Positions 26,160 to 64,000 of a DNA stretch of 64,000 bases are shown piece after piece. The DNA is from Squalus acanthias (taxonomy: Eukaryota). Both the position numbers and the translations under genes were made by a program. Location of the stretch: assembly GCA_030390025.1 (NCBI GenBank), contig CM059431.1, positions 133,736,001 through 133,800,000 of the forward strand, in the 5' to 3' direction. The notes under the pieces were generated by a model. It saw only the letters and a program-made list of their open reading frames with translations, ran no database searches and was not told the origin of the DNA. The stretch's first letter is position 1, and every line of letters begins with the position of its first letter.

Positions 26160-29100
26160 TGTTGTGGCTGCCGCGAAGCACGAATTGAGGCCGAGTCAAT
26201 ATGTGGAACACATAGCTTTTAATTTCATCTCTGCTGGTCAAAATGGCTGCGACCACATTTCTCTCCAAAACCCTGAGGCCCCGCCCACTCCTTTTTTCCT
26301 GCCTTAAAGGCAGCATGCGCCTTAAAGGCAAGGTGCCCGATTTATTGTCCACGGACGGAAAAGTGGATTGCGCCCGTTTAGGTGGCGATCCGCCACACAG
26401 CTCCCCCCAGAATCCGCTTAGGAGGTGTGGACGAGATGGTGCGGCGGTCTGATGGGCCGGCCGAAGCGGCTCTTGTAGGATGCCGGTGGACGTGGAACGG
26501 CCGGCGTGGAGCAGCCGGGTGAACTGGCTTGAGGGCAGGTCGGCCGTGTGGTGGTGGACGAGCTACAGGGACCTGCTCACCGGGCTCCGAGTGTGCTGGC
26601 TTGAGTCGGTCAACCGACACTTTTTCGGTCCTGTCGCCCACTTGCAGGGTGAAAAATTAGTCCCCAGCCTGTAGCACCTTGTAGGGCCCGTCGTACGGGG
26701 GTTGAAGGGGTCCACGGTGGGCGTCGTGCAGGACGAAAACAAACCGTGCCTGGTGCAGGCTTAGTGGGACGTGTGAGGTGGATTCGCCGTGTCGGGCAAT
26801 GGGCACCGGGGCGAACTGTAGCGCTGGTGAGGCGCAGTCGTGGCGTTGCTGGTCGGCTGACCAGGGTGTCATGGCGGTGGGCAGGAACTCGCCGGATACG
26901 CGCAGTGGCTGACCGTACACGAGCTCTGCCGCCGATGCGTGGAGGTATTCTTTAACCGCGGTGCGCAGGCCGAGGAGGACCCACGGGAGTCGGTCGATCC
27001 AGGCGCCGTTCTGGAGGCTGGCTCGAAGAGATGCCTTCAAGGATCTGTGGGACCGCTCACACAGTCCGTTGGCTTGGGGGTGGTACGCTGTGGTGCGGTG
27101 AATGGTCACCCCGAGATTGCGTGCGACGGCGGTCCAGAGTTCAGAGGTAAATTGCGGACCTCTGTCCGACGTCATGTCGGAGGGGACGCCGAACCGTGCG
27201 ACCCAGGTGCTGACGAAGGCTCTGGCGATGTCGGCGGTGGTGGTAGAGGTCAGTGGAATTGCCTCGGGCCAGCGCGTGGTGCGGTCAACGATCGTCAGCA
27301 AGTGCGTGTGGCCTTGCGACGGCGGCAGGGGCCTGACGATGTCCTCGTGGATGTGGTCGAATCTACGCGAAGGGACGGTAAACTCCTCGAGGGGTGCTTT
27401 TGTGTGTTGCTGCACCTTGGCCCGTTGGCAGGCTAGGCAGGAGTTGGCCCAAGTACGCACATCCTTGCGAAGGCCGCGCCAGACAAAGTGGTTGGCTACC
27501 AATTTGATGGATGTGCGGGCGCCGGGGTGGGAGAGGTTGTGGAGAATGTCGAATACCCGGCGGCGCCAGGACGCTGGGACGACGGGCCGAGGTTGACATA
27601 GGGATATGTCGCACTTGACCGTGACTGCGGTCGGGCCACAGGCGACATCGGCCAGGCGTAGCCCTGGTAGGTTGGTAGGTGTGGAGAGCAGATCAGGGTC
27701 GGTGATCTGGTCTGCTGCGAGTTGAGCGTAGTCGACTGCCAGGTGTGCGGCATGGATGGCGGGGCGGGATAGGCAGTCGGCTAACACATTGTCTTGGCCG
27801 GAGACGTGTTGGATGTCCGTGGTGAACTCGGACACTGCCGCGAGCTGGCGCTGCTGCCTGGCGGACCAGGGGTCGGTTGTCTTTGCCATTACGAATGTCA
27901 GGGGTTTGTGGTCGACAAACGCAGTGAAGGGGTGGCCCTCCAGCAAAAACCGAAAATGGCGGACCGCCAGGAACGGCGCGAGGAGCTCGCAGACGAAGGT
28001 ACTGTACTTGCCCTCTGGGGGGCGTAGTTGGCGGCTGAAGAAGGTAAGTGGTTGCCAGGCGCTGTCGACCCACTGCTCATACACGACGCCGACTGCGTGG
28101 TCGGAGGCGTCCGTGGTTAGCGCTACCCTGGCATTGGGCCGTGGGTGCGCGAGCAGGGTGGCGTTGGCGAGCGCGGTCTTGGTGGAGTCGAAGGCGGCGG
28201 ACGCGTCTGCCGTCCATTCGACCGCCATAATGCCGCTCCTGCCCCGGAGGGCTTCATACAGGGGCCTCATGAGGGACGCCGCTTTGGGGATGAAGTGGTT
28301 GTAGAAATTCACCATCCCGAGGAACTCCTGGAGGCCTTTGATGGTGGTGGGGCGGGGAAATTGTTGGACGGCCTGCACCTTGGTGGGCAGGGGAATGGCC
28401 CCAGCATGGGTGATGTGGTGGCCGAGGAAGTCGATCTTGTCCAGGCCGAACTGGCATTTGGCGGGGCTGAGGATGAGCCCGTGGTCGCTGAGGTGCCCGA
28501 ACAGGATGCGAAGGTGTTCGAGGTGTTCCTGCTTGGAGGAACTGGCTACCAGGATGTCGTCCAGGTAGACGAACAGGAACTTCAGGTCCCGAAGGACCGA
28601 GTCCATGAGCCGTTGGAATGCCTGGGCTGCGTTTTTGAGGCCGAAGGGCATCCGCAGGAACTCGAAAAGACCGAAGGGGGTGATTTCGGCCGTCTTGGGG
28701 ACGTCTGCGGGGTGGATGGGGGCTTGGTGGTAGCCGCGCACCAGGTCGACCTTGGAAAAGACTGAGCGGCCGGCCAGTCTAGCCGAGAAGTCCTGGATGT
28801 GCGGCATGGGGTACCGATCATGGGTGGTGGCGTCGTTGAAGCGGCGGTAATCCTTGCAGGGGCGCCAACCCCCGCCTGGTTTGGGGGCGATGTGGAGTGG
28901 GGAGGCCCAGGGACTGTTGGAGCGGCGGATGATGCTGAGCTGTTCCATGGTGGCAAACTCGGTCCGCGCGATCTGCAGTTTGGCCGGGTCCAGCCTGCGG
29001 GCGTGGGCGTACACTGGGGGTCCTGTGGTGGGGATGAAGTGTTCCACCCCGTGTTTGGCGGCCTCCGCGGAGAAGGTCGGATTGGTAAGGGCCGGGAATT

Positions 29101-30506
29101 CGGCCAGGAGTGCCGAGTAGTCATCCGTGGCCCGGGCGTGGCACTGTGATGCCATGTCGGCGGGTTGACGGGGGGCCATGGTGCCCAGGATGGGGGACAT
29201 GGTGTTCATGTCCACGAGGCGGTGTCGAGGGATGTCTACCAGTAGGCCGTGGGTGCACAGGAAATCTGCGCCGATGAGAGGGGAGAGCACCTTGGCAGTG
29301 ATGAACTCCCATCGGTAGCGGCGACCAGCGAGGTCGAGGGTGACTGTACGGGTGCCGTACGTCCGGATGTCCGAGCTGTTAGCAGCAGCCAGCGCCGGTC
29401 CTCGTTCGCCCTTTTGGATGTCGAGGGCGGAGGCCGGGATGATGCTGTGCTGAGCTCCAGTGTCGCACAGGAACCGGTGGCCGGTTTTGTCATCCGTGAC
29501 GTACAGCAGGGAGCCCGCGTGGCCCACGGCCATCGCAGGGGCTGGTGCGGGGGCGGACTTAAAAGAGCAGGGAGGTGTGCACCGTTGTGCCCTGGCGCCA
29601 AACCGTGCGTGGTAGTAACAGTGGCCCGGGTTAGTGGGGCGCGAAGGCCCCGTGAGCCCGGTGGCTGGGCCTTGTGGCCGCGTGGTGGCCGGTGAGGGGC
29701 ACGCCCAGGCAGTGGCTGCCAGGTCCGGAGTGACGTCGCGGCTGGAGTGAGCGGACAGCAGCTTGTCGGCCTCATCGGCCAGGGCTTCCAGGTCCGTGAG
29801 GCCGGACGCCATGATCGCTGGGCGGATGCTGAGAGGTAGCTGGCGGTTGAACAGTGTGCGGAAGAGGGATCCGGATGGGCTCTCGTCGGTGAGGGAGAGC
29901 ATGTGGGAGATGAGGTCTGATGGTGAGGCATCACCGAGGCCTGGAAGGTCGAGGAGGTGGCAGTTTCGCTGGTATGTCGAGGCGTAAATTTTTTAAGGAG
30001 CGCGGCCTTAAGATGTGCATACTTGCCCTCCTCTGGTGGGTTCTGCAGCGCTGTCCAGACCTTCGTAACTGTGGAGCTACCGAGTGATGTGACGAGGTAG
30101 TCGTACTTCGTCCCATCTGTAGTGATGAGTTGCAGCCGAAATCGTGACTCGGCTTGGAGGAACAAGGCTTCGGGCTGGTTTTCCCAAAACTCCGGCAGTT
30201 TCACGGAAACTGCGTTCGTGTCCGCCATTGCAGTGCTCGGAATATGTTCTGAGCATCGGGGTCACCAATGTTGTGGCTGCTGCGAAACACGAATTGAGGC
30301 CGAGTCAAAAGTGGAACACATAGCTTTTAATTTCATCTCTGCTGGTCAAAATGGCTGCGACCACATTTCTCTCCAAAATCCTAGAGGCCCCGCCCACTCC
30401 TTTTTTCCTGCCTTAAAGGCAGCATGCACCTTAAAGGCAAGGTGCCCGATTTAATGTCCACGGACGGAAAAGTGGATTGCGCCCGTTTAGGTGGCGATCC
30501 GCCACA
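26160..30506 (-). mobile_element. Full-length Ty3/Gypsy LTR retrotransposon, CsRn1-like clade
   Basis: 238-bp TG..CA LTRs (30269-30506, 26160-26397); TSD GGGT; tRNA-Trp-type PBS TGGTGACCCCGA; PPT GGGGGGAGCTG; CHCC knuckle. Confidence 0.95.
26378..30228 (-). pseudogene. Gag-Pol polyprotein (Gag, protease DTGA, RT YLDD, RNase H, integrase with GPY), with one frameshift near 29980 and a stop at 26657
   Basis: ORFs 29236-30228 (N-terminal part), 26657-29902 (1081 aa) and 26378-26641. Confidence 0.92.
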
Positions 30507-43028: not shown

Positions 43029-43908
43029 TGTAAGATTTCCAAAATTTGCAGATCCCCAAAAATATATCGAAAGGAAAAAAATAAGGACTTTGGAACTTTA
43101 AAGGAAACATGCCTGGACATGTCCGGCACATGGATGGTCTGGGAGTTCAAAGACCAGCAAACATTAACATTTGGACAATAGGCCCTGGGGAAAGGCCGCC
43201 CCACCCAAAACACAGAGCCCAGCAAGGAACCCAAAGCAGGAGAACAATGCAAGCTTCCGTGGAACAACAACGCAACAGGATCTAAGCCATTTGATTTGGT
43301 TTAGCACAGTTGAAAGCCCATCAAAATTTCAACAAAGACAATGAACAGGCCTCACCTGAAAACTCACTGCATCACGAAACCAGTTTTTCGTGAGGAGTTT
43401 TGTGGGGGGTGGGGGGGAGGGGGCGGGGGCGAAAAAGGACTATATCTATAGCAGGACCCAAGAGCTCTCTCTTTCGACTCGCTGACTATGCTGGAAACAA
43501 GGCTCTCTCGCAGCACTGCCCAGAAGCCACATGGTAAAGGAAGACGTTCGATGACCAGAATCACCATCGACTTACCTGGCTGGATTTCGTACTGTTAATA
43601 CCCCTGTCTGGTGAGCATTATCCCTGATCTCCTGAAACCCAAACCTAGATAGAAGTGGGATTTTTGGGAGGGATAAAGGTTTTTTTTTTCTTGTATACTG
43701 TAACCTGTTTAAGTGTGAAGTATGTTTAAGTTTGTTACCTTTTAACTTTAATAAAAGTTATAGTTCTTTCATTGGAACCTGTGGTCTACTGCATCTTTAT
43801 TCACAACCCCTAAATAAGTCCAAGTTTTGAACCTGGGGCGTGGGAGCGATTCGAACCGCTCACTGAGTCAGGGGAAAGGCTGACTCCTACCACAACCCAC
43901 ACCCTACA
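43029..43908 (+). repeat. 5' LTR (880 bp)
   Basis: TATA-like box near 43441; donor GTGAGC at 43611; AATAAA at 43750; direct repeat of 49482-50375. Confidence 0.95.
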
Positions 43909-43910
43909 AA

Positions 43911-45710
43911 ATGGCGACTGTGGCAAGGACTTGGCAAAAGGGTTGTGAAGCAGTAGACACTGATTCAGAAGAGAGAACTGTAATGGAAGAGAGGATTTCA
44001 GATTATGTATTCAGCAAAGTGAATATGGAAAAGAAGTGGGTCACTAATCTATTAAAAACTGGGTGTCCGGTAGATGCAGCAGCTAAATGGACAGAAGGGA
44101 AGGATCATAAAAAATCCTTAGAAAAGGCAGTCTGGCTGATGTGCTTCAAGAAACAGATCCAACTTTTGGACAGACTCGTTGAAGCACAGGCAGCCGAGAT
44201 TCGGGAGTCGGCCCTGGAAGTCCAAACGTAGGCCCTAGCAGGGGAGAAGTTACTGTTAGCATTGCAGGCACTAAACCAGGAAAGGGTGCAGTTAGTGGGG
44301 GAACACAAGTCCCGGCAGGATTATTTACAGTGCCAGGTCACTGAGGCCAAGAACAATGAGCTGAGGTTGCGGGAAAAGAATGCCCGCCTGGCAAAACAAG
44401 TAAGAGAGCAGGAGGAGACAGTAAAAGGCTTACAGGCAGCCTATAAGGTAATGAGCGCACAGGGGTTTGAGGATGCGGACCATGGCCCCTGCCAGAAGCA
44501 GATAGAGAGTCTCAGCCTTGCTCTAAGGAAGGCAAGAGGCGTGGCGTGCCTCATAAGCCCAAGTGCAGCCCAGGTCGACTTTACAGGGAACCTGGGGAGA
44601 ACGGTTCAGACACCAAAGATAGCGCCAAGGGACGACCCGGTTGAGGAGCGGGAGGGCCCACGACCACCACCCATAGCGCCAAGCTTTAGCGACAGTCTGG
44701 CAAGAAGAAGGGGTGGAGTTAGGGGCAGAAGCTGAGGTGGAAAAAACCCCGCAAGAGAGCTGGGACCGGGGCCGATGTGCCCGGCCCGGCAGGACAGATT
44801 TGGCCCACCCGCTGATAACGGGGATGCGGGACCCCTCCAAAGCCAGTTCGTGGCTCCCCACGGTACATAACAGCTTAGGGTAATGGTAAGCCACCTGAGT
44901 AAACTCACCCAACAAGGGGACCCCTCAGTTCACTTCATAGAGGTAGAGCAGGCAGCAGGCGTCAACGGCTGTGACGATGCCGAGATGGCAAAAATGCTCC
45001 TGTTCTCACTGGACAGCCGGTTATACCAGTCTCTCTCTGCTGAGAGCAAGAGAGGACAGAATGGGTATGCGGCCATCAGAGAGGAAGTTTTAGAGGCAAT
45101 GGGGATGAATGAGGGAAGTCCTTTCTCCCAGGTGGAGAAAACAGTGCAGCTCGCAGGAGAGACCCCACAGGCTTTTGCAGACAGGCTGTGGCCCGTGTAC
45201 AGGGGTGCTTGTGGTGGGGATCTTAACAGGGCTCACCTAAACCGGGACGAGCTGGCCCACTGGCTCCGTAGCCTAGTGGCAAACAGCTTGCCTCGGATCA
45301 AAACCCAGGCTGAGCTTTGGTTTGACCCGAAAGACCCCCGGGTCACCGAGGAGGCAGTGGTCAGACAGCTGAACCTGGCCTACCGGAACGGGAGAGGGGC
45401 GGAAGAGCCCCCACAAAAAGGGAAAGTACATGAAATAAAACCCGGCCAGAGTAGGAAGGAGTGGCATCAGGAGGGGAATAACCCTTCCAGCACAAAGCTT
45501 AACTGTTATGGGTGTGGGAAGGATGGTCACTGGAGGAAGGAGTGTAAGAATCCTTGGAAGGATAACAAGGGAAAGAATTCCTCAGCCCCAGCCCAAAAGG
45601 CAGAGACAGGGATCCCTCCCGCCACGGTCAAGTCATTTTTGGACACCATGAGGTCCCTATTGACTGGCCCAGGGAAGGTAGCAGCAGCCCAATACAACCC
45701 AGACTTCTGA
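43911..45710 (+). pseudogene. gag: gag (600 codons in one frame, with three premature stops at 44229, 44733 and 44868)
   Basis: N-terminal coiled-coil; MHR-like QLAGETPQAFADRL; CCHC knuckle CYGCGKDGHWRKEC. Confidence 0.85.
43912..43931 (+). promoter_or_regulatory. Primer-binding site, tRNA-Arg(TCG)-like
   Basis: TGGCGACTGTGGCAAGGACT 3 nt after the LTR; tRNA assignment is from memory and allows G-U pairs and one bulge. Confidence 0.6.
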
Positions 45711-46520
45711 CTGGAACCAGCGCAGCCTGCCTACCTGTGTCCCCTTGAAAGACACGCACAGGAAGAGACCTCCCGTAAGGAGGCCAGGTTAAATGAGCAG
45801 GCCTTACGGGAGGAGAACGCCCGCTTAACGGGGAAAGTAGACGGGCTAGAGGGGCAGCTTAGAGACAGGGTAGCCAGGAGCAGGGAGTATGAGGATTTAA
45901 ACCATGGGCCCTGTGAGGAAAGGATAAAAGGTCTGACCCAAGCCCTATCCAAAGCCAGAGGGATGGTTTGCTCAACAACCCCAGGGGAATTCACCACCCC
46001 GCAGTTGCAAGCCATGGTAGCAGAGTTGACCAAACTAAAACAGAATAGAAATCCTCAGCCTCCAGCAGGCGAGATTACTCAGAATGCACAAGCAGGGGCG
46101 CTGGCCTGTCTTGAGGGAGGAGTCACCCAGGCCCCTGTTCAAACCACCCCCCCTCTCTTCTGGGACTCAGGTGGGGAGGAGGAGGAGCCCGAACCAGATA
46201 GCCCCGCCCCCGATCCAGGTGTTGAACCAGCACCAGGCTGCGAAGAGTCACCTGACCCTGAAACAGGTTTAGAAGAGGTACAGCCTGAGGATAGAAATCC
46301 CCAGCCAGTGGCAGTGGAAGATTCACAGACCACACAACAGGGGCAGTGGCTCGTGTTAAAGACCCACCAGCCAGAAAACCCCCACCAGCCAGAGCCCCTG
46401 GAAGGTCCCCACGTACGCCACAGCCAAAGAAACCGTGGTCACCGGCTCCCCAATTTAAAAGGGCCGCCCCTCAAGCCAGGGGTCGATCTGAGGACAGAGG
46501 TTCCCGGCCAGCAGCCATAG
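45711..46520 (+). CDS. In-frame post-gag ORF: duplicated Gag coiled-coil plus acidic/proline-rich tail; no pol motifs
   Basis: Open from the gag TGA; LREENARL...NHGPCEERIKGLTQALSKARGMVC parallels gag LREKNARL...DHGPCQKQIESLSLALRKARGVAC. Confidence 0.6.
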   Translation: MEPAQPAYLCPLERHAQEETSRKEARLNEQALREENARLTGKVDGLEGQLRDRVARSREYEDLNHGPCEERIKGLTQALSKARGMVCSTTPGEFTTPQLQAMVAELTKLKQNRNPQPPAGEITQNAQAGALACLEGGVTQAPVQTTPPLFWDSGGEEEEPEPDSPAPDPGVEPAPGCEESPDPETGLEEVQPEDRNPQPVAVEDSQTTQQGQWLVLKTHQPENPHQPEPLEGPHVRHSQRNRGHRLPNLKGPPLKPGVDLRTEVPGQQP

Positions 46521-46841
46521 GCTGCAAGGGACCAAAGGTACAGGACACGGCCACACCAAAGGGAGTAGGGTGCTGCAGCCCGAACAGGGCTTAGTCTGGC
46601 CGCTCGGAGATGGGCGGCGAATGTACATAGTTTTTGTTTGTTAAATTTTGAGATTGTTAAGTTTGGGTGTTTTTAGTTAAATTTTAAGTAAGGTGGTTGG
46701 TAGTTTTAAAATGTTATAATTTCAAGAGTGTTTTGTATTGAGTCGAGGTCGCAAGACCCGACTATGCTTCACCCAAGCCAGAGAATCTACTTGGGACCTG
46801 GCTATATGCTCTTGTGTCTCCTTACAGAAGGGATTGTCGAT

Positions 46842-49193
46842 ATGAAGGGGGGCATACTCCTACTCGCTCTGATAGGAATGAGCGCTGGGAGGCGAGGTGA
46901 CGTGGAGGACTCCCACATTTTTGGGTGCTCAGGAGAGAGAGCACCGGTGGTGACTGCGGGTGGCAGCAAGCGAGGCGTGAAGGAGCTCGCTACCTATTCC
47001 CACGTGGGAAGATGGCCAGGGTGGCTGGGATCTAACTCCACCCGATACTCCAGTCAGACCGGGCTCACCTACGGGGAGGCCTCCCTCCCCTGTCCCAGCA
47101 TACAGGTTGTAGCCACTCGGGTCGGGGTCACTGAGGGGAAACGCGTGTGCCTGACCTGCAGAGGACAGATTCCCCTGGGAAGGTGGTGGTGGCTCAGGAA
47201 GCTGAGCAGAGACATGGGGGACCGTACAGCTGACTGGGAGCGACTGGGGAATGACACCCATCGGACCATTACGGGGGACCATAGGGGGGTGAGCGTGTGC
47301 TGGGACAAGTGGTGGAAATCGGAACAGGGGATTTATGTCTGCATGTGGGGGTCGCGGAAGGCCTGCCCCACGGGCATATCCATTATCTTTTCCGCAGCAT
47401 GGCTGGATAAGGGGAAGGGGGTGGAATGGGATTCCCACCTACACACTTGCATAGTCCCGCCCTCTCCAGCCCCAGTCAAGGCCACTGAACTCGTGGCACA
47501 CGCCCGTAAGCCCCTGCCCACGACCCAGACAGCAAGGACACGCACAGAGACATGCCCTACCACCACCAAGGGACCAGGGAATGGGCTGGTACTAGTGCCA
47601 ACCGAAAAGGTGCTATACCAGGGGGTACACTACGCGGTAGCTTCCGTGATCCTAAACCTCACGGAGGTACACTTACCTGAGTGGTGCCCCAAAGAGACGG
47701 AACAGCTATACCAGGCCCTGTTCAGAGAAATGTTCAGGAAGTTCTACGAGTTCGATTTCGCAAACATAGACAAAGCAGAACTGTACACTGCACACACTGA
47801 GTATTTTAGCAATACGGGGAGACAAAGGAGGGGAGCCTGGAATGATATTTTTACAGCGTATAATACAGGGTCCTCTGTCATCAACAGTCTGGATGACATA
47901 GAATTGCAGACACAAATAAATGGTTTAAAAACACAATTGCGCAAAATCTTAATGGATGAAAATACAGTAGTGGGCTCAGAGTTACACGAGGACCAAGCTA
48001 TGACGGTTCATTTAAAAGAAATCATTGCTGAGCTGGAAAGGCACGCAAAGACGGTAAATGCACTCATACGGGAGGACAGGAATGCATCAGACCAGGCTGC
48101 ACAGAACGAGGTGTGCGTACTGTACGGGGCATGGTTGCTAGGCGAGGGCCGGAGTAACCTGGAGGATTTAAAGCAAGGTTTAGTCCCCTCCTGGATCAGC
48201 AACAAGCACCTCGCAGCCCTCCACCCATTTGAGAATTCACTAAGCCCGTGTCAGCTCTGTCTAGCCTCTGAAGCCTACACTGTACCAGTAGATTGTGGGT
48301 GTTCCAATCACACTATCATGGGGATAGTGGTGAGGATGCCGGTCATGGGTGGGACTGCCCGACCCGCACCGGTATACAGGGTGGAGAACATTGGAGTCAT
48401 TCAAGGGGGTGCACACATCCGTTTCACAGCGGTCCCACCTTATGTCATAAAGTGGGAGCACGCTATGACAGGTACTGACCTCTCCGGGTGGCGGAGCCGG
48501 GGTCCACACATAATACTGTGTCCCCAGCACTTGAACGCCTATTCTAAACCACAGTGTGGGTTTAAAGCTGCGAGCACACGACCTATAAATTGTACCATGG
48601 AAGCCATGGCACAAGACCATGTTCCCCCACAGGTAACATATATAGGAGGTGGGACATATTGTGTCACCACCAGCGCGCCTCACTACCAGTATGGACAGCA
48701 TACCTGGTGTCCGGTAAGTGACAGCAGTTTCTGCTTTAAACCCGAGGCAGAAGTTCAAGTTGCCCAGGAACAGATTGTCCCCATTCCTGAACCCTCCACT
48801 GTTCACCTCACTGTAACACAAAATTTCACCAACCTGCAAAAATATGTAGCACATTTTGGCTACGAAATTCCCCCTCTACCAGAACGCCTTACCAAGTTAC
48901 TAAAAGCTGTAGAGCTCTCTCAAAAACATTTCTACACTTTAGAACAGAATACACACGAGATAGAGAGAGAGATTCAAGGTATCACAGTCCCACCCTGGTG
49001 GGACATCTTCGAAAACATAGAGGTCCCTTCATGGGTCAGAATGGCTTCCCACCTCCTCGTAGTTTGCCAACTGGGAATAGTATTGTACCTGGTGTGCACT
49101 CAGTGCAAGGGAAAGGGCAGAATACTACAGTTCCGAAATGAAAGGACTTGGAGGAAGCATTATGCTGAGGTGGAGAGAGATACACCTGTTTGA
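46842..49193 (+). CDS. env: Intact envelope/fusion glycoprotein, 783 aa
   Basis: Splice acceptor at 46827; signal peptide MKGGILLLALIGMSAG; Ig-like domain; furin site RQRR at 47820-47831; heptad; Cys-rich core; TM near 49041-49105. Confidence 0.88.
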   Translation: MKGGILLLALIGMSAGRRGDVEDSHIFGCSGERAPVVTAGGSKRGVKELATYSHVGRWPGWLGSNSTRYSSQTGLTYGEASLPCPSIQVVATRVGVTEGKRVCLTCRGQIPLGRWWWLRKLSRDMGDRTADWERLGNDTHRTITGDHRGVSVCWDKWWKSEQGIYVCMWGSRKACPTGISIIFSAAWLDKGKGVEWDSHLHTCIVPPSPAPVKATELVAHARKPLPTTQTARTRTETCPTTTKGPGNGLVLVPTEKVLYQGVHYAVASVILNLTEVHLPEWCPKETEQLYQALFREMFRKFYEFDFANIDKAELYTAHTEYFSNTGRQRRGAWNDIFTAYNTGSSVINSLDDIELQTQINGLKTQLRKILMDENTVVGSELHEDQAMTVHLKEIIAELERHAKTVNALIREDRNASDQAAQNEVCVLYGAWLLGEGRSNLEDLKQGLVPSWISNKHLAALHPFENSLSPCQLCLASEAYTVPVDCGCSNHTIMGIVVRMPVMGGTARPAPVYRVENIGVIQGGAHIRFTAVPPYVIKWEHAMTGTDLSGWRSRGPHIILCPQHLNAYSKPQCGFKAASTRPINCTMEAMAQDHVPPQVTYIGGGTYCVTTSAPHYQYGQHTWCPVSDSSFCFKPEAEVQVAQEQIVPIPEPSTVHLTVTQNFTNLQKYVAHFGYEIPPLPERLTKLLKAVELSQKHFYTLEQNTHEIEREIQGITVPPWWDIFENIEVPSWVRMASHLLVVCQLGIVLYLVCTQCKGKGRILQFRNERTWRKHYAEVERDTPV

Positions 49194-49481: not shown

Positions 49482-50375
49482 TGTAAGATTTCCAAAATTT
49501 GCAGATCCCCAAAAATATATCGAAAGGAAAAAAATAAGGACTTTGGAACTTTAAAGGAAACATGTCTGGACATGTCCGGCACGTCGATGGACTGGGAATT
49601 CAAAGACCAGCAAACATTAACATTTGGACAATAGGCCCTGGGGAAAGGCCGCCCCACCCAAAACACAGAGCCCATGGGAATGCTAGGACCAGCAAGGAAC
49701 CCAAAGCAGGAGAACAATGCAAGCTTCCATTGAACAACAACGCAACAGGATGTAAGCCATTTGATTTGGTTTAGCACAGTTGAAAGCCCATCAAAATTTC
49801 AACAAAGACAATGAACAGGCCTCACCTGAAAACTCACTGCATCACGAAACCAGTTTTTCGTGAGGAGTTTTGTGGGGGGGGGGGGGGGGGGCGGGGACGA
49901 AAAAGGACTATATCTATAGCAGGACCCAAGAGCTCTCTCTTTCGACTCGCCGACTATGCTGGAAACAAGGCTCTCTCGCAGCACTGCCCAGAAGCCACAT
50001 GGTAAAGGAAGACGTTCGATGACCAGAATCACCATCGACTTACCTGGCTGGATTTCGTACTGTTAATACCCCTGTCTGGTGAGCATTATCCCTGATCTCC
50101 TGAAACCCAAACCTAGATAGAAGTGGGATTTTTGGGAGGGATAAAGGTTTTTTTTTCTTGTATACTGTAACCTGTTTAAGTGTGAAGTGTGTTTAAGTTT
50201 GTTACCTTTTAACTTTAATAAAAGTTATAGTTCTTTCATCGGAACCTGTGGTCTACTGCATCTTTATTCACAACCCCTAAATAAGTCCAAGTTTTGAACC
50301 TGGGGCGTGGGAGCGATTCGAACCGCTCACTGAGTCAGGGGAAAGGCTGACTCCTACCACAACCCACACCCTACA
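49482..50375 (+). repeat. 3' LTR (894 bp)
   Basis: Direct repeat of the 5' LTR with about 11 substitutions, a 17-bp indel and G-tract variation. Confidence 0.95.
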
Positions 50376-59764: not shown

Positions 59765-60104
59765 TCTGCTTTGCACCCAGTTTGTGTTTCTCTCTCTTCC
59801 TTTCCCCAGTTTGTGTTTCACTCTATCCCTCCCTCCCCAGTTTGTGTTTCTCTCCCTCTCCCCAGTTTGTGTTACTCTCCCCCGCCAGTTTGAGATTCTC
59901 TCTCTCTCTCTCTGCCGTTTGTGTTTCTCTGACTCTCCCCAGTTTGTGTTTCTCTCCCACTCCTCAGTTTGTTTCTTTGTCTCCTTCCCCAGTTTGTGTT
60001 TTTCCCTCTCGCCCTCTCCCCAGTTTGTGTTTCACTCTCTCCCCCGTTTGTGTTTCTCTCTCTCCCTCTCCCCAGTTTGTGTTTCTCTCTCCCTCCCCAG
60101 TTTG
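59765..60104 (+). repeat. Minisatellite, unit approx. (CT)n-CCCCAGTTTGTGTTT
   Basis: About a dozen imperfect units; interrupted by the LTR at 60105. Confidence 0.9.
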
Positions 60105-61859
60105 TGTTAAGGGGGCGTGTCTCAGACGGTGCTGGTGCGAGGTTAGGCCTTCGTTGCCTATACTATTGCTTGCTCTGGTCTCCGGCCAGCCTTTTTGCAA
60201 TAAGCACCTGTGAGTGGTTCGACCCACTCGCCCTTACGGTTCTGACACCTGGACTTAGATGCAAGGAGCAGTAATGCAGAGAAAACTCAATAGACCCGGT
60301 TGAATAGCACGAAACGAATATCTTTATTGCATGGCGTCTAAAATCATGAAATACATGTCATAGGCGCAAATCAAAGAGAGTACAAGTATACACACATTCA
60401 TAAAACTTGGTCTATGGAAATGGAGAACACACGGCACATTGTAAAAAGGGGAACACATTATACCTTAACCTTATAAAAACCACCCTCCCTTAACAATACC
60501 TACACTACGTCTGGATTTGTAGGATCGGAAATCATGCTCACCACTCGGTTTACTTCGGAGATTTTAAAATGAGGCACTCAGCTCGTTTCGCTGCAGCGCC
60601 TGACTGTCACGTGTTTGGAAGGGTTTCTGCACCCCACTTCTTTACTTTCGCTGCTGCGAAAGGCAAGCCAGACTCCCTGTTGTCATGAAGCAGTCGATGG
60701 ACTCAAACCGTCTTAGAATTCAAAGAAGGATCTTCCTGTGTTGCGGTACATGTAGAAGTCGGTAGAACTCAAAGGAAAGTTCTGTCGTTATATTTTTCCC
60801 CGCGCAGGTCGGGTTTTACTGACCGTGGCGGCACGTGGAATTTCTTCTCGTCTTTCTTCTCGTCACTCGGGCCTCCGGGTCCAGACACCGTTTACCGACA
60901 CTCGGGATGGTGTACCCTGTTACTTGCCCTTGTCGAGGCGGCTCGTTCCGATTGAGCTCCACCCAACACTCGAATAACCGACCAGTACGGCTAAGAGTCA
61001 AGAGTCAACAGAGTCCAGAGAGAAAATCAAGAGGCTGACAGTCCAGGAGAGCGATACAAGAGACCGATGGACATTTGTCCTCTATAGTTATACTGTTGTG
61101 TCCGCTTTATCTCCCGCTCAAATCTAAATGTTTATCCTTTGTGTGATTTTGGCGCTTAAAACTCCCAGCATGGGGCGATTCTCTTCTTAACGGGTTTCGG
61201 TGGCACCTGAAACTGGCCAACTATTCGTTAATGTCTTCCCCATTGTTGAGCCAGCCAGGATGTGTATGAATCGTCTCCTCGACTGGTTTTGGGGCCCCCC
61301 GAATACTGGCTTAATCACCCGCCAATGTCTCTCTCATTGTTGAGCCGGGGGGGTATTTGTGTATTGATGTGTCTGGATGGGCCTTCGATTGCCCAGTTCA
61401 ATGATCCTTACTGTGCATAGGAAAACGATTCCAGCACTTATATCATTGCTATTGTTCAAAATGCAAACGGGTTGCATCCTGTCTTTATCAATGTGTACCG
61501 AGTATGATCCAATCTCATACTGAATGTATATTCGACACCATCTTGTCTGCCCACTGTGTCTCTGGAAGCTTCTGCCACGATGCGCGGCGGCCATTTTACA
61601 GGCTTCTGTGTCCTTTATATTATCAGGACAGCATTTCGTTTAATAAAACTGATCAATTGAATCTGCTTCTCTCATGTTATTTTGAATCGCGATAATTACG
61701 AAACTCTACAGTCCCTCCTGTTGATGCGAATAACTCCGCTTATCGTATCAATTAAATGCTGGTGAGCAAAATTATCCCGATTCTCCACATCCAAACATTC
61801 CCGGTAATTAAACTATCTATGGCCTCCATGCAGTCCTCATTTCCCAGAGAAAACACATT

Positions 61860-62840: not shown

Positions 62841-64000
62841 TTACGTGACACTTTCCTCGTTCACGCGAATGTAACGTTCTCTCCACTCACCTGTGTTCTC
62901 CTGCCTCGTGAGGCGTTTGCCTCTTTTGCAGTGCACGAACAGCAGGTACACTACAATTACAACTTGACACACTACCAAAATGTGGGAGGCTATCCTGATC
63001 CATGACGGGACTTCGATATTAGTGAACAGATCCCACCACGGTGGGGTTACTATGTCCAATATCTTTGCCCCTATCTCTACAGTTTTCTGTTTCAGGGTGT
63101 AAAAATGATTCTGTGATACCATGACGGCTTTTAAAATCTTGGTGAGGTGTTCAGGGAGAGGGGGAATGATGTATCCGAAATGCGCGATGAATCGCTGCAA
63201 GTCTGTGAAATTCTCTTTTACAGTGAGGTGAACAGTGGATGGTTCAGGGATCGGGTCAATTCGCTGCTGTGCCACTTGAACTTCAGCCCTGGGTTTAAAA
63301 CAGAAACTGCTGTCACTCACCGGACACCGGCTGTGCTGTCCATGCTGGTAGTGTTGCGCTGCAGTGGTAACGCAATACGTTCCACCCCCTATGTATGCCA
63401 CCTGTGGGGGCACATGATCTTGTGTCATTGCTTCCATGGTGCAATTCATGGGCTTCGCGCCAGCCGTTCTGAACCCGCATTGTGGTGTTAAAAAGGCATT
63501 CAAGTGCTGGGGACACAGTATGATGTGTGCTCCCCGGCCACGACAACCCGAGAGGTCGGTACCTGTCATCGTTTGCTCCCAGCGGATGACGTAAGGTGGG
63601 ACCGCTGCGTAGCGAATGTGGGCTCCCCCTTGAATGACACCAATGTTCTCCACCCGGTACACCGGGGCGGGCTTTGCTGTGTCGCCCAACACCGGCATCC
63701 GTACTACTATCCCCATGATAGTGTGATTTGACTGTCCGCAGTCCACTGGGACTGGGTATGCCTCTGAGGCTAGCCTGAGCTGGCACGGGCTTAATGCGTT
63801 CTGAAAAGGGTGGAGCGCCTGCAGGTGTTTGTTGCTTATCCAGGACGGGACCAAACCTTGTTTTAAATCCTCCAAATTACTGCGGCCTTCGCCCAGTAAC
63901 CACGCCCCGTATAGTACGCACACCTCGTTCTGCGCAGCTTGATCGGATGCATTACGATCTTCCCTGATCAGGGCATTTACCGTTCTCGCATGCTTCTCCA
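62841..64000 (-). CDS. env: Envelope glycoprotein paralog, C-terminal part (open to the window edge)
   Basis: Colinear with the env at 48040-49193 (LYGAWLLGEGRSNLEDLKQGLVPSWISNKHL...PPWWD..NIEVPSW, TM). Confidence 0.88.
   Translation of the reverse strand, partial: EKHARTVNALIREDRNASDQAAQNEVCVLYGAWLLGEGRSNLEDLKQGLVPSWISNKHLQALHPFQNALSPCQLRLASEAYPVPVDCGQSNHTIMGIVVRMPVLGDTAKPAPVYRVENIGVIQGGAHIRYAAVPPYVIRWEQTMTGTDLSGCRGRGAHIILCPQHLNAFLTPQCGFRTAGAKPMNCTMEAMTQDHVPPQVAYIGGGTYCVTTAAQHYQHGQHSRCPVSDSSFCFKPRAEVQVAQQRIDPIPEPSTVHLTVKENFTDLQRFIAHFGYIIPPLPEHLTKILKAVMVSQNHFYTLKQKTVEIGAKILDIVTPPWWDLFTNIEVPSWIRIASHILVVCQVVIVVYLLFVHCKRGKRLTRQENTGEWRERYIRVNEESVT

What the first reader, a model, noticed from the sequence alone, without database searches (positions are those of the whole stretch)
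45708..46520. pol replaced by an in-frame, readthrough-positioned second Gag coiled-coil
Seen: the gag stop TGA-CTG is followed by about 270 open codons in the same frame. After LEPAQPAYLCPLER comes a diverged copy of the Gag segment at about 44340-44560 (shared LRExNARL, HGPC, ALxKARGxxC), then an acidic/proline-rich tail. Known: UGA-C is a leaky context and gag-pol readthrough occurs in gamma/epsilonretroviruses. Inference: readthrough would yield a Gag-X fusion in place of Gag-Pol; the divergence indicates an old duplication or capture from a sister element.
Basis: partly seen in the sequence, partly recalled or inferred. Interest (0 to 1): 0.7.

Follow-up and report, generated by a model that had tools for sequence, protein, structure and literature searches.

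The report
Pol-less retrovirus keeps readthrough frame open
A young, many-copy endogenous retrovirus in a probable cartilaginous fish lost its polymerase gene and patched the gap, in frame, with gag scraps from sister viruses, and its relatives suggest that what is likely selected is an open reading frame past the leaky gag stop rather than a new protein.

Summary
In detail: gag ends TGA-CTG and 269 open codons follow, 42% identical to the element's own Gag coil. But X is not a new gene or an old duplication. It is 12 codons of the protease start, a ~300-nt mosaic of gag from two sister lineages (D, E; 88-92% identical to E), and the native post-integrase tail of pol. At least 150 copies exist, and the cassette has moved into a lineage whose Gag is only ~52% identical. 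All 12 of 12 propagated rearrangement junctions, in X and in an independent coil-less pol-deleted family, keep the frame. One subfamily (45 hits) deletes half the coil. Gag is under clear purifying selection; X only weakly, yet it has no shared stops. Best reading: a non-autonomous ERV whose readthrough frame is kept open to the native pol stop, probably protecting its RNA from decay (untested). Readthrough itself is inferred, not measured. The window copy has a broken gag and a frameshifted X. New variant of a known kind.

The parts
43029..43908 (+). 5' LTR (TG...CA), preceded by the 4-bp target duplication GCCT
   Evidence: 13 mismatches in 877 aligned bases against the 3' LTR
43911..45710 (+). 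gag: N-terminal coiled coil, Ty3-like capsid, one zinc knuckle. Broken in this copy (stops at 44229 and 44868, short frameshifted stretch near 44690-44760). The first in-frame ATG overlaps the primer-binding-site-like TGGCG
   Evidence: capsid type from a lineage B copy
45708..45714 (+). gag stop TGA with CTGG context, the same junction that separates gag from pol in pol-bearing relatives (CTAG in most lineages)
45711..45746 (+). first 12 codons of pro-pol; ends where the mature protease is predicted to begin
   Evidence: (query residue 15 aligns with HIV-1 protease residue 4, residue 12 with EIAV protease residue 1)
45747..46041 (+). captured gag mosaic: D-type start, 30-nt deletion near 45778, E-type coil to 45989, 177-nt deletion, D-type start of capsid helix; all in the gag frame
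45769..45813 (+). predicted RNA hairpin (12-bp outer stem) spanning the 30-nt deletion; function unknown
   Evidence: predicted in 101 of 119 X copies
46042..46594 (+). native post-integrase tail of pol with the RRSPRTPQP motif and native stop (46592-46594); frameshifted near codon 210 of X in this copy
46710..49193 (+). env, 827 open codons, RQRR cleavage-like site, F-type fusion protein by language-model features
49482..50375 (+). 3' LTR, followed by GCCT

Best explanation
This is a non-autonomous endogenous retrovirus in which most of pol was replaced, in frame, by gag fragments from sister lineages, and selection likely keeps the predicted readthrough frame open to the native pol stop, probably to protect the genomic RNA from nonsense-mediated decay, with the coil mostly a passenger. 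Shown: the anatomy, the donors, the spread between lineages, in-frame junctions and purifying selection on gag. Inferred: the element makes its own Gag and Env and borrows Pol from pol-bearing copies; a few percent of ribosomes read through UGA-CU(A/G)G as they must in those copies; they stop at the native pol stop, so the RNA keeps the termination layout of a full element. Rearrangements that close the frame do not spread, whatever they encode.
For: 12 of 12 propagated junctions keep the pol frame. Eight are in X: pro|D, 30-nt and 177-nt deletions, D|tail; 69-nt duplication in 10 copies, two with one extra base; 138-nt deletion, 45 hits; 162-nt deletion in 2 copies; insert joined directly to B-type pol in 5 copies. 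Four are in the independent P family, which encodes only scraps of pol with a truncated protease. By hand, 12 of 12 has p about 2e-6 at one third and about 0.002 at the 60% in-frame rate of single-copy indels of 9 nt or more (18 of 30). In samples drawn by gag alone, all 46 pol-deleted copies among 60 loci were X or P type. Shared stops in X: 0 of 172 shared non-synonymous changes against 14 of 431 singletons, p 0.014. Amino-acid constraint is weak (insert dN/dS 0.76, tails 0.5-0.76, not different from singletons), while gag shows 0.14-0.34, p 0.023 or less. In pol-bearing copies no Met lies between the stop and the predicted protease start, so pol needs readthrough or splicing. UGA-CUAG is a known leaky motif (PMC4132726), and 1-5% readthrough can inhibit decay (PMC5360307).
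Against: Neither readthrough nor RNA decay was measured, and the decay step is inference. PMC5360307 section 15 found that longer conditional frames are protected less well at low readthrough and did not test this layout. At the strictest threshold (8 or more copies) the insert shows dN/dS 0.38, p 0.062, a hint of protein constraint. Every X variant keeps the first ~28 codons of the coil, and one duplicates them. Young X copies have CTGG, not the stronger CTAG. No conserved stimulatory stem was found. Many copies were picked by protein score or open-frame length, which favours open frames. DNA-level deletion lengths for P junctions depended on the reference copy and gave non-zero remainders for three of the four against at least one reference; their frame was judged from the translation. 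Gag variation may partly be imported by recombination with pol-bearing copies.
Confidence: 0.45

Rival explanations
1. The frame is kept open to deliver the pol tail as a Gag fusion. Its conserved basic motif RRS(P/S)RTPQP would act in the particle, for example in chromatin tethering or nuclear entry (inferred), and could be released at the retained protease site.
For: Both X and P end in the native tail. The motif is shared by otherwise unlike pol tails of lineages A, A2, B and, in variant form, E and is found in 101 of 119 X copies, 60 of them in the open frame. The retained 12 codons end at the predicted protease N-terminus. This rival predicts the same in-frame junctions.
Against: Tail dN/dS is 0.5-0.76, not different from singletons (p 0.14 pooled). 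Helper Gag-Pol must be in the particle anyway and would bring the same tail (inference). P copy L047 has an open frame without the motif (one copy).
Confidence: 0.25
2. One reading: Gag-X carries a working second coil, at least its first four heptads, that helps assembly or recruits the helper's Gag-Pol.
For: Codons ~24-51 are kept by all X variants and duplicated in one. Lineage-defining changes give dN/dS 0.38, p 0.062. The cassette crossed between lineages with ~52% identical Gag.
Against: Half the coil is gone in a 45-hit subfamily. The insert is less constrained than the Gag coil (p 0.004 and 0.025 at two thresholds). Family P spreads without a coil. The kept stretch also holds an RNA hairpin, which could explain its retention.
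Confidence: 0.15
3. X is a neutral by-product: template switching at microhomologies tends to keep the frame, and the cassette spread because the element is short and keeps its cis signals.
For: Junctions show microhomology. Single-copy indels of 9 nt or more are in frame in 18 of 30 cases. Insert and tail dN/dS are not significantly below singletons. The tail lies just upstream of env, where splice signals would be kept anyway (inference).
Against: 12 of 12 in frame is unlikely even at 60% (about 0.002, by hand). No shared stops (p 0.014). No propagated TAA or TAG variant of the gag stop.
Confidence: 0.15

Closest known systems
Non-autonomous pol-less ERVs such as zebrafish BHIKHARI Bik-1/Bik-2 (10.1101/2024.03.25.586437, passages read)
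   Same: LTR element with a coding gag with N-terminal coiled coil and no RT or integrase, recently amplified, presumed to use a partner's Pol.
   Different: Bik-1 has one ORF and Bik-2 neither pol nor env. This family keeps env and an open frame after the gag stop, built from sister-lineage gag pieces and the pol tail.
Lokiretroviruses (PMC7947760; parts 1-2 of 4 of the text, passages, supplement part 8 and searches)
   Same: F-type Env, dual RNase H, Ty3-like capsid, coiled coil at the front of Gag (the paper annotates smc-gag-pol genes).
   Different: RT core motifs look by eye nearer to snakehead retrovirus than to the published Loki set. The paper found 0 of 6 chondrichthyan genomes positive. 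Pol here has a 130-270 aa tail. The main text does not mention readthrough.
Gammaretroviral gag-pol readthrough (Moloney MLV; PMC4178896 seen as search listing only)
   Same: gag and pol in one frame, separated by one stop codon.
   Different: MLV uses UAG (listing) and a pseudoknot (PMC5360307 passages). Here the stop is UGA-CU(A/G)G, the motif of alphaviruses and four mammalian genes (PMC4132726 passages), with no conserved structure found.

Membership tests
Non-autonomous endogenous retrovirus | Paired LTRs with target duplication | tested here: met
Non-autonomous endogenous retrovirus | No RT, RNase H or integrase core | tested here: met
   only 12 codons and the tail of pol remain
Non-autonomous endogenous retrovirus | Amplified as a family, with pol-bearing relatives in the same genome | tested here: met
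   (150 matches, the listing cap)
Non-autonomous endogenous retrovirus | Mobilised in trans by those relatives | not testable with these tools
   inferred from shared tails and recombination
Lokiretrovirus | Env similar to Mononegavirales fusion glycoprotein | tested here: met
   (scores 0.93 Baculo_F, 0.92 Fusion_gly); weak Pfam hit E 0.036 on the neighbouring element; PDB profile search found nothing; the fold model was unusable
Lokiretrovirus | Dual RNase H (tether plus RNase H) in pol | tested here: met
   on pol-bearing copy L032
Lokiretrovirus | RT falls in the Loki clade, sister to other retroviruses | tested here: inconclusive
Lokiretrovirus | Integrase related to CGIN1 | tested here: inconclusive
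   closest named hit is labelled NYNRIN-like; equating NYNRIN with CGIN1 is recalled; no tree
Readthrough-expressed gag-pol | gag and pol in one frame, split by a single conserved stop in a leaky context | tested here: met
Readthrough-expressed gag-pol | Conserved 3' stimulatory RNA structure | tested here: inconclusive
   pairings differ between lineages, z-scores -2.1 to +1.2
Readthrough-expressed gag-pol | Measured readthrough product | not testable with these tools
   needs a reporter, ribosome profiling or proteomics

The most novel reading that the evidence does not exclude
Pol-less ERVs of this clade carry a mobile readthrough cassette, passed between lineages with half-identical Gag, that makes a Gag fusion with a borrowed coil and the integrase tail, released by the helper's protease, and lets parasitic elements capture Pol from several helper lineages.
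Probability: 0.15. Interest if true: 0.8.

Novelty: new variant of a known kind. Interest (0 to 1): 0.5.

Why it matters
Pol-deleted ERVs are usually treated as simple deletion mutants. Here two independent, successful families with unrelated junk in place of pol both keep the conditional frame open. That is population-level evidence of a cis requirement downstream of a leaky gag stop, and it gives a natural test of whether retroviral readthrough protects genomic RNA from decay apart from making Pol. The family also records multi-parent recombination (A, B, D, E) in one 300-nt patch, in an F-env retroviral lineage of cartilaginous fish that the published lokiretrovirus screen did not report.

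Tried and rejected
Old in-cis duplication: rejected, donors found at 88-92% identity. X as a native extra gene between pol and env: rejected; all 20 copies fetched for differing frame lengths had X directly after gag. A donor gag already carrying the 177-nt deletion: 0 exact pattern hits, which does not show absence. Protein databases: no hit for whole X; 3 weak hits for the insert, one a Gag-like fragment; no meaningful Pfam hit on X. Conserved readthrough stem: not found. Env fold: mean pLDDT 33.6, so no fold search was run; PDB profile search 0 hits. Expression: no RNA holder listed; contigs from four runs only guessed to be RNA cover X, which is not evidence of transcription, but they showed the 138-nt joint that was then found in the genome. 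The env control failed (2 copies covered). Literature: searches returned 0 papers; the listings showed no matching case (titles and abstract starts only). Our-findings look-ups by sequence and by words were empty. No complex prediction was run. Supplements of the two bioRxiv papers could not be seen; figure S2 of PMC7947760 is an image and could bear on the smc comparison.

Full report
Observation. The stop TGA lies at 45708-45710, followed by CTG and 269 open codons to 46520. X residues 24-92 match the window's Gag at about 44343-44564 with 42% identity, E 8e-15. The stretch sits in a 7.3-kb element with LTRs at 43029-43908 and 49482-50375 (13 mismatches in 877 bases, target duplication GCCT), a gag broken in this copy, and an open env. 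Named relatives of env and pol come from a skate and two sharks, so the host is probably a cartilaginous fish (inference).

What X is made of. Pol-bearing copies with 94-97% identical Gag exist in the genome (L031, L032, L034, L035). Their pol starts right after the same TGA with LEPAQPVYLC(S/P)L, so the first 12 codons of X are the start of pro-pol. The protease aligns with HIV-1 and EIAV proteases such that the mature enzyme would start near codon 12, and the first Met is at codon 24, so these copies need readthrough or an unseen splice. From 46042 on, X is 95-97% identical to the tail of pol behind the integrase in three of these four copies (91% in L034). The middle (45747-46041) is gag from other lineages. 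A pattern asking for the insert's end followed by capsid sequence gave 59 hits (lineage D; 20 read). A second pattern gave 84 hits of two types; the 20 E-type loci read matched the coil at about 88-92% (output partly cut). The insert is D-like at both ends and E-like in the middle, with deletions of 30 and 177 nt, both multiples of three.

Spread. The protein search listed 150 copies at 87-100% identity, its cap. The cassette, from about ten codons before the stop to about 30 codons into the tail, also sits in lineage B, whose Gag is about 52% identical to the window's, and there continues in frame into a B-type tail. Of 99 copies, 94 have TGA, one TAA, two TGG, one CGA and one was misplaced; the next codon is CTG in 86 and CTA in 10. 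The frame is open for 250 codons or more in 30 of 54 A copies and 33 of 42 B copies, but part of this sample was chosen for open frames. The window copy is one of the damaged ones.

Selection. I compared variants shared by several copies with singletons, after dropping 7 near-duplicates of 119. Gag coil and capsid give shared dN/dS 0.14-0.34 against 0.58-1.05 for singletons, p 0.023 or less. The insert gives 0.76, 0.54 and 0.38 at thresholds of 3, 5 and 8 copies (p 0.55, 0.24, 0.062); tails give 0.5-0.76, not significant. The insert is less constrained than the Gag coil (p 0.004 and 0.025). No shared stop occurs among 172 shared non-synonymous changes, against 14 of 431 singletons (p 0.014). 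Recurrent mutation inflates the low thresholds, and recombination may import gag variation.

Junctions. Besides the four founding junctions, X has spawned subfamilies with a 69-nt duplication of the coil start (10 copies), a 138-nt deletion that removes HGPC and ALSKARG (45 exact hits; 8 of 10 loci read cleanly), a 162-nt deletion (2 copies) and a direct join to B-type pol (5 copies). All keep the frame. An independent family, P, has a truncated protease and three more pol scraps joined in the pol frame to the tail, with no coil (7 loci). For P, DNA-level lengths depended on the reference copy, which have their own frameshifts, so the frame was judged from translations. In 60 loci drawn by gag alone, 21 were X, 25 P, 13 pol-type and 1 unresolved; the queries came from an X and a P copy, which favours those families. 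Twelve of twelve in frame has p about 2e-6 at one third, and about 0.002 at the 60% seen for single-copy indels of 9 nt or more (18 of 30); both figures are by hand.

Mechanism. The pattern is an open frame with loose content. The simplest cause is at the RNA level: rare readthrough ribosomes run to the native pol stop and keep the RNA from decay. UGA-CUAG is a known leaky motif and UGA-CUA alone gave 1.5% readthrough (PMC4132726, passages). Low readthrough can inhibit decay, though less so on longer frames (PMC5360307, passages and section 15). This step is untested (0.45). Delivery of the pol tail, whose RRS(P/S)RTPQP motif is shared across lineages, predicts the same junctions (0.25). A minimal working coil is not excluded, since codons ~24-51 are always kept (0.15). 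Neutral bias remains possible (0.15). No conserved stem was found after the stop.

Comparison with what is known. The element works like a non-autonomous ERV such as zebrafish BHIKHARI (10.1101/2024.03.25.586437, passages) but keeps env and the conditional frame. Its parents share the F-type env, Ty3-like capsid and dual RNase H of lokiretroviruses (PMC7947760; PMC9040795 and 10.1101/2023.10.26.564294, passages). Their RT core looks by eye nearer snakehead retrovirus, and the Loki screen found none in 6 chondrichthyan genomes, so membership is left open. Searches showed no report of this arrangement, within the library's limits. Earlier scan notes agree on the env type and the non-Loki polymerase; they are unchecked AI notes, not support.

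Verdict. A real, family-wide feature. New variant of a known kind; interest 0.5.

Noticed in passing
L037, L042, L044, L047-L050, L232-L261 (25 of 30): Family P: an independent pol-deleted family with a truncated protease and pol scraps from lineage D/E joined in frame to an A/A2 tail; L109-L111 and L241 look like its precursor.
   Followed up: partly
window 43909-43929: The first in-frame gag ATG overlaps the primer-binding-site-like TGGCG just after the 5' LTR; lineage B shows the same layout. The tRNA was not identified.
   Followed up: no
window 62841-64000 (-) and L051: A pol-type lineage B element of the same clade lies in opposite orientation at the window's end.
   Followed up: partly
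L032 pol: RT core motifs resemble snakehead retrovirus while the thumb resembles Loki, in an element with F-type env and Ty3-like capsid; possibly a distinct basal retroviral lineage (by eye).
   Followed up: partly
window 47094-47342: Weak immunoglobulin-domain hit (E 0.064) in the N-terminal part of env.
   Followed up: no
window 45670-45710: Pol-bearing A and A2 Gags end with PSAP (a late-domain motif, recalled); window-type and B-type X copies have a shorter end without it.
   Followed up: no
window 26657-29992 (-): An unrelated pol ORF of 1111 codons with RT, a single RNase H-like domain and integrase, probably Ty3/Gypsy.
   Followed up: no
L036:3400-10000: A lineage B element is inserted inside the pol of a lineage A element.
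   Followed up: no
window 59786-60133: Degenerate tandem repeat with a period of about 25-30 nt.
   Followed up: no
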